Positions 58 through 37,417 of a stretch of 37,417 nucleotides of DNA are shown one piece after another. Where the stretch lies: the UHGV virus genome UHGV-0367149; one strand, 5' to 3'. The DNA is from a virus. The stretch's first letter is position 1; every line of letters starts with the position of its first letter. The notes under the pieces were generated by a model. The model was not told where the DNA came from, did no database searches, and was given only the letters and a program-made list of their open reading frames with translations. The translations under genes and the position numbers were made by a program.

Positions 58-168
58 ATGACAATAGAAAAACATGAAAGAAGCACTAAGGATTTGGTGA
101 AAGCAGCAGTATCGGGATGGCTGGGCACTGCGCTTGAATTTATGGATTTCAAGAGTCATACGTGTTAA
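58..168 (+). pseudogene. 5' fragment of a host MFS-type transporter gene (ydfJ-like), cut off at the prophage junction
   Basis: ATG at 58, 36 codons, TAA at 166-168 (MTIEKHERSTKDLVKAAVSGWLGTALEFMDFKSHTC). The N-terminus resembles MFS transporters; the frame ends where AT-rich phage arm DNA begins. Below the ORF-track length cut-off. Confidence 0.3.
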
Positions 169-187
169 CTATTTGATAAATATTAAA

Positions 188-8803: not shown

Positions 8804-10540
8804 AATGTCCCCAGACAATTCTCTGGGGGATTTTTCATGATCAAAGAGACTGTTACGATGAGTCATAAGGAACTCCACCGACTTCAGATTATTCAGGAGT
8901 CAATTAATCGACATATTACTCAGGAACAAGCTGCGGCACGCATTGGCATTTCTATTCGGCAGGTTAAACGTCTGGTGCAACGGTATAGAAATGAAGGGCC
9001 TTCTGGTCTGGTTTCCCACCGACGTGGAAAGCGTCCTAATAATTCCTTTTCTACTGAATTCAGAGCAACAGTAATTTCACTCCTCAAAGGCCGTTACGCT
9101 GATTTTGGACCTACGTTTGCGTGCGAAAAATTGCGCGAGATACACGGTTTATCTTTATCCGTTGAAACTCTCAGAAAGTGGATGATAGAAGAGGGGTTAT
9201 GGCGTGAACGCCGTCGTAAAATTGCCCGTATATATCAACGCCGCATGCGACGACCATCTTACGGTGAACTGATCCAGATTGATGGCTCACCTCATGACTG
9301 GTTTGAAAATCGAGGCCCCAGATGTACACTGATCGTTTTCATTGATGATGCCACCAGTGCGTTGATGGCGTTGCGTTTTGTGCCTGCTGAAACAACCCGG
9401 GCTTACATGGAAACCCTCCGGGGTTACCTTAATGATCATGGCGTACCGCTCGCTCTCTACTCTGATAGACACAGTATATTCAGGGTAAATAACCCAGAGC
9501 GGGAAGGTGAGCTGACCCAGTTCACTCGTGCGATAAAGACACTGGGCATCGAGCCAATCCATGCCAACAGCCCGCAGGCAAAAGGGCGGGTAGAGCGCGC
9601 CAATCAGACACTACAGGACAGGCTGGTCAAAGAAATGCGGCTTCAGAATATCAGTGATATTGAAACAGCAAATGCATGGTTGCCGACCTTTATTGAAGCC
9701 TATAACAACCGGTTCGCTACGTCGCCTCATACTACTGATAATGCTCATCTTGATGTGCACCATTCTGAAGAGGAACTGGGTTATATCTTCAGCCTACAGG
9801 CGAAGCGCGTTCTGTCTAAAAATCTCACTTTCCAGTACAAAAGCAGTGCGTTTCAGGTACGCAGTGAGGGCCGGGGATATCGACTTAGGCATTCGGTTGT
9901 TACTGTATGTGAGAACTTTGACGGTGAAATTAACGTTCTGTATGACGGGAAAGCGCTGGGCTGGGAAAAGTATGTTGATGGCCCGGAGCCTATACCACTG
10001 GATGATGAAAAGAGTGTCCATGAACGAGTGGATAATGCCCGTATTGATTTACGCTCAAAATACTATGTTAAATCTAAAGCTGACCATCCCTGGCTTACGC
10101 GCCGAACGCAAAGTCATCAGCAAGTTAAGCCCCCGAAGTTACCTAAAAAGAAGCCTGATCCCGATAAAATAGATTGAAACCAAGATCGATTCGGTTGAGT
10201 GCATATCCATTCATAGGGTAGATTCTTAAGTCGCGTTTCTGGTGTTCATTTTCGGGTGGTTTGTTACTTGTTTTACCGGGGATATGCCAGAAACGCGCTG
10301 AGTCAGTCTGGGCGGTGCGCGTAATGAGGCGTTATGGTAAATAGCCTATGCTAATGTCCGCTAAGAGCAAGAAGCGGAAGTTGGCAGTTTTGTGGACTGT
10401 CCCCACAAAAGTGACTACAGAAATAGTTGCAATTCATAATTGATCATGGGTTGTCAGTTAAACTCGTGGCGATTTAAATAGACTAATTGGGAGGGCGTCC
10501 ATTACTTATATCTTGTAATGTTAACTATCAGAAATGATAC
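8780..10540 (+). mobile_element. insertion sequence (single-ORF DDE transposase, IS481/ISNCY-like); ends not resolved
   Basis: Transposase ORF 8837-10177 plus about 350 bp of non-phage-like flank. I could not identify terminal inverted repeats or a target-site duplication by eye, so the boundaries are approximate. Confidence 0.4.
8837..10177 (+). CDS. IS transposase (N-terminal HTH, rve/DDE integrase core)
   Basis: 446-aa ORF. N-terminal HTH (...AAARIGISIRQVKRLVQRY...). Candidate DDE triad in ...LIQIDGSPHDW..., ...ALYSDRHSIF..., ...AKGRVERANQTLQ... Confidence 0.85.
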   Translation: MIKETVTMSHKELHRLQIIQESINRHITQEQAAARIGISIRQVKRLVQRYRNEGPSGLVSHRRGKRPNNSFSTEFRATVISLLKGRYADFGPTFACEKLREIHGLSLSVETLRKWMIEEGLWRERRRKIARIYQRRMRRPSYGELIQIDGSPHDWFENRGPRCTLIVFIDDATSALMALRFVPAETTRAYMETLRGYLNDHGVPLALYSDRHSIFRVNNPEREGELTQFTRAIKTLGIEPIHANSPQAKGRVERANQTLQDRLVKEMRLQNISDIETANAWLPTFIEAYNNRFATSPHTTDNAHLDVHHSEEELGYIFSLQAKRVLSKNLTFQYKSSAFQVRSEGRGYRLRHSVVTVCENFDGEINVLYDGKALGWEKYVDGPEPIPLDDEKSVHERVDNARIDLRSKYYVKSKADHPWLTRRTQSHQQVKPPKLPKKKPDPDKID

Positions 10541-26928: not shown

Positions 26929-27954
26929 ATGTCGATGTACACAACCGCCCAGCTGCTGGCGGCAAATGAGAAGAAATTTAAGTTTGATCCGCTGTTTCTG
27001 CGTCTCTTTTTCCGTGAGAGCTATCCCTTCACCACGGAGAAAGTCTATCTCTCACAAATTCCGGGACTGGTAAACATGGCGCTGTACGTTTCGCCGATTG
27101 TTTCCGGTGAGGTTATCCGCTCCCGTGGCGGCTCCACCTCTGAATTTACACCGGGATATGTCAAGCCGAAGCATGAGGTGAATCCGCAGATGACCCTGCG
27201 TCGCCTGCCGGATGAAGATCCGCAGAATCTGGCGGACCCGGCTTACCGCCGCCGTCGCATCATCATGCAGAACATGCGAGACGAAGAGCTGGCCATTGCT
27301 CAGGTCGAAGAGATGCAGGCAGTTTCTGCTGTGCTTAAGGGCAAATACACCATGACCGGTGAAGCCTTCGATCCGGTTGAGGTGGATATGGGCCGCAGTG
27401 CGGCGAACAACATCACACAGTCCGGTGGTACGGAGTGGAGCAAGCGTGACAAGTCCACGTATGACCCGACCGACGATATCGAAGCCTATGCGCTGAACGC
27501 CAGCGGAGTGGTGAATATCATCGTGTTTGATCCGAAAGGCTGGGCGCTGTTCCGTTCCTTCAAAGCCGTCAGGGAGAAGCTGGATACCCGTCGCGGCTCT
27601 AATTCCGAGCTGGAGACAGCGGTAAAAGACCTGGGCGAAGCGGTGTCCTATAAGGGGATGTATGGCGATACGGCGATCGTCGTGTATTCCGGACAGTACG
27701 TGGAAAACGACGTCAAAAAGAACTTCCTTCCGGACAACACGATGGTGCTGGGGAACACTCAGGCACGCGGTCTGCGCACCTATGGCTGCATTCAGGATGC
27801 GGACGCACAGCGCGAAGGTATTAACGCCTCTGCCCGCTACCCGAAAAACTGGGTGACCACCGGCGATCCGGCGCGTGAGTTCACCATGATTCAGTCAGCA
27901 CCGCTGATGCTGCTGGCTGATCCTGATGCGTTCGTGTCCGTACAACTGGCGTAA
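26929..27954 (+). CDS. E: major capsid protein E
   Basis: ATG at 26929 gives 341 aa (MSMYTTAQLLAANEKKFKFDPLFLRLFFRESYPFTTEKVYLSQIPGLVNMALYVSP...), lambda gpE-like. Confidence 0.95.
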   Translation: MSMYTTAQLLAANEKKFKFDPLFLRLFFRESYPFTTEKVYLSQIPGLVNMALYVSPIVSGEVIRSRGGSTSEFTPGYVKPKHEVNPQMTLRRLPDEDPQNLADPAYRRRRIIMQNMRDEELAIAQVEEMQAVSAVLKGKYTMTGEAFDPVEVDMGRSAANNITQSGGTEWSKRDKSTYDPTDDIEAYALNASGVVNIIVFDPKGWALFRSFKAVREKLDTRRGSNSELETAVKDLGEAVSYKGMYGDTAIVVYSGQYVENDVKKNFLPDNTMVLGNTQARGLRTYGCIQDADAQREGINASARYPKNWVTTGDPAREFTMIQSAPLMLLADPDAFVSVQLA

Positions 27955-36284: not shown

Positions 36285-37329
36285 ATGGGTAAAGGAAGCA
36301 GTAAGGGGCATACTCCGCGCGAAGCGAAGGACAACCTGAAGACCACGCAGTTGCTGAGTGTGATCGATGCCATCAGCGAAGGGCCGATTGAAGGTCCGGT
36401 GGAGGGATTAAAAAGCGTGCTGCTGAACAGTACGCCGGTGCTGGACAGTGAGGGGAATACCAATATCTCCGGCGTCACGGTGGTGTTCCGGGCCGGTGAG
36501 CAGGAGCAGACTCCGCCGGAGGGATTTGAATCCTCCGGCTCCGAGACGGTGTTGGGTACGGAAGTGAAATACGACACGCCGATCACCCGCGCCATCACGT
36601 CGGCAAACATCGACCGACTGCGCTTTACCTTCGGTGTGCAGGCACTGGTGGAAACCACCTCAAAGGGGGACCGGAATCCGTCGGAAGTTCGCCTGCTGGT
36701 TCAGATACAGCGTAATGGTGGCTGGGTGACGGAAAAAGACATCACCATTAAGGGCAAAACCACCTCGCAGTATCTGGCCTCGGTGGTGGTGGATAACCTG
36801 CCGCCGCGCCCGTTTAATATCCGGATGCGCAGAATGACGCCGGACAGTACCACAGACCAGCTGCAGAACAAAACGCTCTGGTCGTCATACACCGAAATCA
36901 TCGATGTGAAACAGTGCTACCCGAACACGGCACTGGTCGGCGTACAGGTGGATTCGGAGCAGTTCGGCAGCCAGCAGGTGAGCCGTAATTATCATCTGCG
37001 CGGGCGTATTCTGCAGGTGCCGTCGAATTATAACCCGCAGACGCGGCAATACAGCGGTATCTGGGACGGAACGTTTAAACCGGCATACAGCAACAACATG
37101 GCCTGGTGTCTGTGGGATATGCTGACCCACCCGCGCTACGGCATGGGGAAACGTCTTGGTGCGGCAGATGTGGATAAATGGGCGCTGTATGTCATCGGCC
37201 AGTACTGCGACCAGTCGGTGCCGGACGGCTTTGGCAGCACGGAGCCGCGCATCACCTGTAATGCCTGGCTGACCACACAGCGCAAGGCGTGGGATGTGCT
37301 CAGTGATTTCTGCTCGGCGATGCGCTGTA
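36285..37329 (+). CDS. J: tail tip/host-specificity protein J, N-terminal portion only (disrupted by foldback at 37330)
   Basis: MGKGSSKGHTPREAKDNLKTTQLLSVIDAISEGPIEGPVEGLKSVLLNSTPVLD..., lambda gpJ-like. Colinearity with lambda J ends after ...DFCSAMRC; from 37330 the sequence is the reverse complement of upstream J sequence. The ORF-track stop at 37352 is created by the rearrangement. Confidence 0.85.
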
Positions 37330-37417
37330 GGTCAGCCAGGCATTACAGGTGATGCGCGGCTCCGTGCTGCCAAAGCCGTCCGGCACCGACTGGTCGCAGT
37401 ACTGGCCGATGACATAC
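37187..37417. repeat. perfect 88-bp inverted (foldback) duplication: arm 37187-37274, 55-bp spacer, inverted arm 37330-37417 reaching the window end
   Basis: The last 88 nt of the window are the exact reverse complement of 37187-37274. The junction at 37329/37330 coincides with loss of the J reading frame. Confidence 0.85.

What the first reader, a model, noticed from the sequence alone, without database searches (positions are those of the whole stretch)
37187..37417. 88-bp perfect foldback inverted duplication truncates the tail-tip gene J at the window edge
Positions 37330-37417 are the exact reverse complement of 37187-37274, separated by a 55-bp loop. The switch occurs in mid-codon of J, just after a short GCGCTGTA motif that also precedes the forward arm (37182-37189). 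This geometry is typical of a template-switch or hairpin event: either a genuine inversion or inverted-duplication breakpoint that inactivates J (so the prophage cannot make infective tails), or a chimeric or contig-end assembly artefact. Either way the J annotation beyond 37329 is unreliable.
Basis: seen in the sequence. Interest (0 to 1): 0.6.

Follow-up and report, generated by a model that had tools for sequence, protein, structure and literature searches.

The report
Foldback artefact at a contig end
The last 88 bases of this record are a perfect reverse-complement copy of sequence just upstream in the phage tail-tip gene J; this is most likely a strand-switch chimera left at the end of a draft contig, not a real rearrangement of the prophage.

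Summary
Bases 37330-37417 are the exact reverse complement of 37187-37274, with a 55-nt spacer, and this is the only inverted repeat of 30 nt or more in the window. Gene J of a Qin-like lambdoid prophage is collinear with thousands of complete E. coli genomes up to base 37329 and then turns back on itself. None of 5,426 complete E. coli genomes holds the junction. It is also absent from IMG/VR, from the GTDB species representatives and from JGI metagenomes. The turn sits beside a native 8-bp inverted repeat in J (ACAGCGCA 37277-84 / TGCGCTGT 37321-28). That repeat forms the predicted stem of the single-stranded DNA. Such adjacency occurs in 0.03% of random geometries. This is the published signature of chimeras nucleated at an inverted repeat during library preparation, but genuine snap-back junctions share it. 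What tips the balance is position. The inverted arm runs to the last base of the record. The left end of the window is a gene boundary and the right end is not. J is a multi-copy gene inside which draft contigs routinely break. My verdict is a terminal chimeric artefact, probability about 0.8. A real foldback duplication remains possible at about 0.12 and needs reads to exclude. J past 37329 should be treated as missing, not mutated.

The parts
36285..37329 (+). Genuine 5' part of tail-tip gene J (codons 1-348 plus the first base of codon 349)
   Evidence: 100% identical and collinear with annotated gpJ in many complete E. coli genomes over query 1-1045 only. Collinear with L002 up to 37329.
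37187..37274 (+). Forward arm of the foldback (native J sequence)
   Evidence: It carries this J copy's own minority alleles: 37236A in 9/81, 37265C/67G/68G in about 26/81, 37217G in 32/81.
37275..37329 (+). 55-nt spacer ('loop'), native J sequence
37277..37284 (+). Left half of the native 8-bp inverted repeat (ACAGCGCA) that nucleates the turn. The imperfect 11-nt version spans 37274-37284.
   Evidence: Alignment of the window end with its own reverse complement and with native J. The stem is present in the MFE and centroid folds of native single-stranded DNA. Control 0.03%.
37321..37328 (+). Right half of the native 8-bp inverted repeat (TGCGCTGT), ending 1 nt before the junction
37330..37417 (-). 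Inverted arm: antisense copy of 37187-37274, running to the last base of the record. Judged non-genomic (chimeric).
   Evidence: No complete E. coli genome spans the junction. The junction 33-mer is absent from IMG/VR, GTDB representatives and JGI metagenomes.
37330..37352 (+). Spurious 7-codon tail (RSARHYR) and stop codon that appear to truncate J
   Evidence: Translation through the junction; ORF 36285-37352.
37182..37189 (+). Direct copy of GCGCTGTA, also at 37322-37329. Native J has a 10-nt direct repeat GCGCTGTATG at both sites. The record end (the complement of 37187) falls inside this copy.
   Evidence: Such a coincidence occurs in 0.08% of random trials. Unexplained.

Best explanation
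The foldback is not part of the bacterial genome. It is a strand-switch (foldback) chimera that an assembler attached to the end of a draft contig.

Inferred sequence of events:
- During library preparation or amplification, a single-stranded stretch of the J sense strand ending near 37329 folded back on itself through the native 8-bp inverted repeat (TGCGCTGT 37321-28 pairing with ACAGCGCA 37277-84).
- A polymerase then copied the same strand backwards from 37274 towards the 5' end of the fragment.
- The resulting molecule reads sense J, then a 55-nt turn, then antisense J.
- J exists in several near-identical copies per E. coli genome, so the short-read assembly broke here anyway. The chimeric read or path supplied the last 88 bases of the contig.
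- The window was later cut out as a prophage, from the gene boundary after rspB to the contig end.

Shown here: the geometry; the native inverted repeat and its predicted stem; the absence of the junction elsewhere; the frequent breakage of contigs in J; and that the inverted arm was copied from this same J copy.

Inferred: that 37417 is a contig end, that the molecule arose in vitro, and the exact enzymatic steps.
For: (1) J is collinear with 4,384 complete E. coli records only up to 37329. No place in 5,426 complete genomes (about 23,600 J copies) covers 80% or more of the 71-nt stretch spanning the junction. The exact junction 33-mer has 0 hits in IMG/VR, the GTDB representative genomes and JGI metagenomes.

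(2) The inverted arm reaches the very last base of the record. The left window end is the first base after the rspB stop codon. The right end is not a gene boundary: if the arm continued, a minus-strand ORF would span 37417. A contig end is therefore the simplest reading.

(3) J is a multi-copy repeat, with a median of 4 places per genome and up to 17. At least 11 of 80 IMG/VR contigs that carry this J end inside the gene.

(4) The turn lies beside a native 8-bp inverted repeat. Random junction geometries in this window show such adjacency in 0.03% of trials. The stem appears in the MFE and centroid folds of the native single strand.

(5) Published in-vitro artefacts match this. Library molecules joining nearby DNA from opposite strands form at natural perfect or near-perfect inverted repeats, with mismatches or indels at imperfect positions (PMC7531576; PMC10908179). 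In amplification of E. coli DNA, 85% of chimeras are inverted, mostly intramolecular, and primed on 2-21 nt of complementarity (PMC1855051).

(6) None of 80 related J loci contains any inverted repeat of 25 nt or more.

(7) The arms are 100% identical and carry this copy's own alleles. The inverted arm is therefore a very recent self-copy.
Against: There are no reads, so support for the junction cannot be measured. Genuine in-vivo snap-back or template-switch junctions have the same geometry. The junction is not the clean product of simple fold-back priming: the best models differ from the observed sequence by a 1-nt deletion, and only a blunt join 37329|rc37274 fits exactly. None of the 11 IMG/VR contigs that end in J has a terminal foldback, so this artefact is not common at this locus. 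That the window end is a contig end is inferred, not shown. The source assembly could not be traced.
Confidence: 0.8

Rival explanations
1. A genuine foldback (snap-back) inverted duplication in the prophage. After a break or a stalled fork, a 3' single strand of J folded back on the native 8-bp inverted repeat and primed synthesis in vivo. This would give a real inverted duplication junction of the tandem-inversion-duplication or ODIRA type. It would truncate J at residue 348 and leave the prophage unable to make infective tails.
For: The junction lies beside a native short inverted repeat, as in real inverted-amplification junctions (PMC4689423) and in quasi-palindrome template switching in E. 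coli (PMC7202029, listed). A graph assembler would also stop shortly after re-entering the reverse complement of its own contig if the duplication were real (inference).
Against: The junction is absent from about 23,600 J copies in 5,426 complete genomes and from three contig collections. A circular chromosome needs a second junction, and none is seen: the 37 kb upstream are uninterrupted and collinear with relatives. The arms have zero divergence. The structure ends exactly at the record end.
Confidence: 0.12
2. A long-read foldback chimera (the template and complement strands of one molecule read as a single read) at the end of a long-read assembly, with the window cut arbitrarily 88 nt into a much longer inverted arm.
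For: Foldback artefacts are documented in long-read data (PMC12870357 and PMC13141652, abstracts).
Against: Such foldbacks turn at the physical end of a molecule with essentially no spacer, not at an internal 8-bp inverted repeat with a 55-nt loop. A prophage-cutting tool would not stop in the middle of a minus-strand ORF. This would still be an artefact.
Confidence: 0.04
3. An assembly mis-join between this J and a second, oppositely oriented J paralogue from another prophage, or a real homologous inversion between two prophages.
For: J occurs in several copies per genome.
Against: Recombination or repeat collapse between paralogues joins sense J to sense J in register. Here sense J joins antisense J out of register (37329 to the complement of 37274). 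The arm also carries this copy's own minority alleles at five polymorphic sites.
Confidence: 0.01
4. A programmed element: a site-specific invertible tail-fibre segment (Gin/Cin/Pin type) or a hairpin telomere of a linear N15-type prophage.
For: Both classes involve inverted repeats in or near phage tail genes or at genome ends (established knowledge).
Against: Native J loci have no second arm: 80 loci lack any inverted repeat of 25 nt or more. The arms are J coding sequence, not crossover sites. The prophage is integrated next to rspB with a lambda-type integrase. The turn has a 55-nt asymmetric loop inside a gene, unlike a telomere palindrome.
Confidence: 0.01

Closest known systems
Dual-strand / foldback chimeric library molecules nucleated at natural inverted repeats (fragmentation and end-repair artefacts; the 'PDSM' model), PMC7531576 and PMC10908179
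   Same: The second part of the read is the reverse complement of sequence within 300 nt on the same locus. [quoted passage not shown] There is a small mismatch or indel at the imperfect position of the repeat.
   Different: Those artefacts are described at read level, at low allele fraction. Here the chimera has been incorporated into a consensus contig end. The library type of the source is unknown.
Inverted chimeras of multiple displacement amplification (Lasken and Stockwell 2007, PMC1855051)
   Same: E. coli DNA; 85% of chimeras are inverted and intramolecular, between nearby segments, primed on 2-21 nt of complementarity.
   Different: There is no evidence that the source DNA was amplified by MDA. 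An isolate genome normally is not.
Genuine snap-back / inverted-repeat amplification junctions (ODIRA, PMC4689423; tandem inversion duplications of Salmonella, Kugelberg et al. 2010, cited from memory; quasi-palindrome template switching in E. coli, PMC7202029)
   Same: A short native inverted repeat with a small spacer sits at the centre of a larger inverted duplication.
   Different: Real cases have a second junction, raised copy number and full read support. None of these can be seen here, and the structure stops at the record end.

Membership tests
Strand-switch chimera nucleated at an inverted repeat (in-vitro artefact) at a contig end | The distal segment is the reverse complement of nearby sequence (within about 300 nt) from the same locus | tested here: met
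   Arms are 55 nt apart and 100% complementary. The arm carries the same copy's alleles.
Strand-switch chimera nucleated at an inverted repeat (in-vitro artefact) at a contig end | The switch point overlaps a natural perfect or near-perfect short inverted repeat of the reference | tested here: met
   ACAGCGCA 37277-84 / TGCGCTGT 37321-28 are present in native J. The stem appears in the MFE and centroid folds. Random control 0.03%.
Strand-switch chimera nucleated at an inverted repeat (in-vitro artefact) at a contig end | The junction sequence equals the product of fold-back priming, allowing changes at imperfect repeat positions | tested here: inconclusive
   The best priming models differ from the observed junction by a 1-nt deletion. 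Only a blunt join fits exactly.
Strand-switch chimera nucleated at an inverted repeat (in-vitro artefact) at a contig end | The junction is not present in the real genome: minority read support, and native continuation present in the reads | not testable with these tools
   No reads are available, and the source assembly was not found. Indirect evidence: the junction is absent from all other genomes searched.
Strand-switch chimera nucleated at an inverted repeat (in-vitro artefact) at a contig end | It lies at the physical end of a contig | tested here: inconclusive
   The arm reaches the last base. The left window end is a gene boundary and the right end is not. Contig coordinates are unknown.
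Genuine foldback / tandem inversion duplication junction | A short quasi-palindrome at the inversion junction | tested here: met
Genuine foldback / tandem inversion duplication junction | A second junction that closes the duplication, and doubled copy number of the duplicated segment | not testable with these tools
   The record ends 88 nt into the arm and there are no coverage data. The 37 kb upstream show no other breakpoint relative to relatives.
Site-specific invertible segment (Gin/Cin/Pin DNA invertase systems) | A pair of inverted crossover sites that flank the segment in the native state in relatives | tested here: not met
   No inverted repeat of 25 nt or more in 80 related J loci. 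Native J continues colinearly.
Hairpin telomere of a linear (N15-type) prophage | A perfect palindrome with no spacer at the genome end, in a non-integrated linear prophage | tested here: not met
   A 55-nt asymmetric spacer inside gene J. The prophage is integrated next to rspB with an integrase and excisionase.

The most novel reading that the evidence does not exclude
The foldback is real. A natural E. coli isolate carries a snap-back inverted duplication, nucleated at an 8-bp inverted repeat inside the tail-tip gene J of a Qin-like prophage. This would capture, in the wild, the unstable precursor junction of tandem inversion duplications that has so far been characterised mainly under laboratory selection. 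It would also kill the prophage's tail.
Probability: 0.12. Interest if true: 0.35.

Novelty: not a real feature. Interest (0 to 1): 0.1.

Why it matters
The main consequence is for data hygiene. The apparent premature stop in J (355 aa instead of about 1,159) should not be scored as a pseudogene or as evidence of a defective prophage. The last 88 bases should be trimmed. The case is also a clean worked example of how a native 8-bp inverted repeat can seed a sense-to-antisense chimera that survives into a consensus contig. Such a chimera could be misread as a structural variant. If it were real it would be a modestly interesting natural foldback-duplication junction of a known mechanistic kind.

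Tried and rejected
1. Tracing the source contig failed. The truncated 355-aa J product is not on record.

2. I looked for the same junction elsewhere. The exact 33-mer gave 0 hits in three collections. A looser pattern, GCGATGCGCTGT-N0-4-GGTCAG, returned only chance hits in unrelated taxa with no J homology.

3. I looked for terminal foldbacks in other contigs that end in J. There were none among 80 IMG/VR loci, so no base rate could be estimated.

4. I tested whether the arm end (37187) coincides with a common polymorphism between J paralogues, which would explain it as a de Bruijn graph branch. It does not: the nearest common polymorphism is 37175, 12 nt away.

5. A paralogue mis-join, a homologous inversion, an invertase segment and a hairpin telomere were each considered and rejected.

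6. Clean fold-back priming models do not reproduce the junction exactly.

7. An arm length of 88 would equal k-1 for k = 89 in a node-centric graph, or the end of a 231-nt hairpin-derived insert. Both are speculation and were not tested.

Full report
**Observation.** Bases 37330-37417 are the exact reverse complement of 37187-37274 (88 nt, 100%), separated by 55 nt. This is the only inverted repeat of 30 nt or more in the 37,417-bp window. The J reading frame starts at 36285. It is left after the first base of codon 349, then reads seven spurious codons (RSARHYR) and a stop at 37350-37352. GCGCTGTA occurs at 37182-89 and 37322-29. The first copy overlaps the first three bases of the forward arm.

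**Context.** The window is a morphogenesis-complete relative of the K-12 cryptic prophage Qin. Position 1 is the first base after the stop codon of rspB in E. coli DSM 103246 (NZ_CP019944.1). The integrase, excisionase, dicB, relBE, hokD, csp genes, terminase, portal, capsid and tail genes follow, and J is the last gene. The first 1,045 nt of J are 100% identical to annotated gpJ in many complete genomes.

- In 4,384 complete E. coli records the match covers at least 80% of the query. In every listed hit it runs from query position 1 to 1045, that is, to window 37329.
- Native J continues ...GCGCTGTA|TGCCGGTATGG, whereas the window reads ...GCGCTGTA|GGTCAGCCAGG.

**Is the junction found anywhere else?** No.

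- A 71-nt query spanning the junction finds about 23,600 J places in 4,461 of 5,426 complete E. coli genomes. None covers 80% or more of it.
- The exact 33-mer across the junction has no match in IMG/VR, in one genome for each of 185,579 GTDB species, or in JGI metagenome contigs.
- Eighty related J loci from IMG/VR contain no inverted repeat of 25 nt or more.

**Anatomy of the turn.** I aligned the window end with its own reverse complement. Just before the junction the sense strand reads TGCGCTGT (37321-28). The antisense strand, just before the point where the inverted arm begins, reads the same TGCGCTGT, which is the complement of ACAGCGCA at 37277-84.

- Native J therefore contains an 8-bp inverted repeat with a 36-nt spacer. 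Allowing one mismatch it extends to 11 nt (37274-84 against 37321-31).
- In 300,000 random junction geometries drawn from this window, such adjacency occurred in 0.03%. The turn was therefore nucleated by this repeat.
- Folding the native single strand that ends at 37329 or 37331 puts this stem in both the minimum-energy and the centroid structures, although the region as a whole is not unusually structured.
- The inverted arm carries this J copy's own minority alleles at polymorphic sites: 37217, 37236 and 37265/67/68. It was therefore copied from the same gene copy, not from another prophage.

**Mechanism.** These features define a fold-back strand switch. A 3' end near 37329 pairs back through the 8-bp repeat, and synthesis then copies the same strand backwards from 37274. 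The same geometry can arise in vitro or in vivo.

- In vitro it is well documented. Enzymatic or acoustic fragmentation followed by end repair produces library molecules that join nearby DNA from opposite strands at natural perfect or near-perfect inverted repeats, with mismatches or indels where the repeat is imperfect (PMC7531576; PMC10908179).
- In amplified E. coli DNA, 85% of chimeras are inverted, mostly intramolecular, and primed on 2-21 nt of complementarity (PMC1855051).
- In vivo counterparts are quasi-palindrome template switching (PMC7202029, listed) and inverted-repeat amplification or snap-back junctions (PMC4689423). The tandem inversion duplications of Salmonella are a further example (Kugelberg et al. 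2010, cited from memory).

**Why I favour the artefact.**

1. The inverted arm runs to the very last base of the record. The left end of the window is a gene boundary. The right end is not: if the arm continued, a minus-strand ORF would span 37417. A contig end is the simplest reading.
2. J is a multi-copy near-identical repeat, with a median of 4 and up to 17 places per complete genome. Draft contigs commonly break inside it: at least 11 of 80 IMG/VR contigs end within J, at nt 1089-2301. A dead-end chimeric read or path is easily retained at such a break.
3. A real foldback in a circular chromosome requires a second junction. None is visible in 37 kb of otherwise collinear sequence.
4. The arms show no divergence, and the junction is unique among all the sequences searched.

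A paralogue mis-join or a homologous inversion is excluded because the join is sense-to-antisense and out of register. Invertase segments and hairpin telomeres fail their defining features.

**What does not fit neatly.**

- The junction equals a blunt join of 37329 to the complement of 37274. Priming from the 11-nt imperfect repeat, or from a mismatched terminal A, predicts one extra T (GCGCTGTATGGTCAGCC). Priming from the perfect 8-bp stem predicts GCGCTGTGTGGTCAGCC. Small indels at imperfect repeats are reported for these artefacts, but this is a loose fit.
- The record ends three bases inside a second direct copy of GCGCTGTA. This occurs in 0.08% of random trials. It was noticed post hoc and I cannot explain it.
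- An arm length of 88 would equal k-1 for k = 89 in a node-centric de Bruijn graph. It would also fit the end of a 231-nt hairpin-derived insert read in full. I could test neither.
- None of the other contigs that end in J shows a terminal foldback, so this is not a routine artefact at this locus.

| Explanation | Probability |
|---|---|
| Terminal chimeric artefact at a contig end | about 0.8 |
| Real foldback duplication | about 0.12 |
| Long-read foldback with an arbitrary window cut | 0.04 |
| Paralogue mis-join or homologous inversion | 0.01 |
| Programmed element (invertible segment or hairpin telomere) | 0.01 |

Only reads or PCR from the source isolate can decide. In practice, J is incomplete in this record, not mutated, and bases 37330-37417 should be trimmed.

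Noticed in passing
L002 about 28175-38893 (NZ_CP019944.1, E. coli DSM 103246); corresponds to window about 27164-27173: In the closest complete genome the prophage's major capsid gene is split by an insert of about 10.7 kb. The insert encodes an integrase, an Icd-like protein, a DNA primase, SSB, its own major capsid and head-decoration proteins, and a TIR-domain protein. It looks like a capsid-encoding phage satellite sitting inside its helper's capsid gene. The window has the uninterrupted capsid gene.
   Followed up: no
window 8837-10177 (+): A full-length 446-aa ISNCY/ISEsa1-family transposase lies inside the prophage early region. The same element is annotated as a truncated pseudogene in DSM 103246. 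This exact protein is seen on 241 contigs.
   Followed up: partly
window 58-171 (+): A short ORF (MTIEKHERSTKDLVKAAVSGWLGTALEFMDF...) lies between rspB and the integrase. It is probably the 5' stump of the host transporter gene split by prophage integration (ydfJ in K-12, from memory).
   Followed up: no
window 37182-37191 and native J equivalent of 37322-37331: Native J carries a 10-nt direct repeat GCGCTGTATG 140 nt apart, plus the inverted copy at 37277-84. The record end falls inside the complement of the first copy (0.08% in a random control). Unexplained.
   Followed up: partly
L072 3602-3805 (IMGVR_UViG_2563366964_000001, contig end): The last 204 nt of this contig, after J nt 2101, have no similarity to the reference J or to the rest of the locus. 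This is either a divergent or recombinant J segment or another contig-end oddity.
   Followed up: partly
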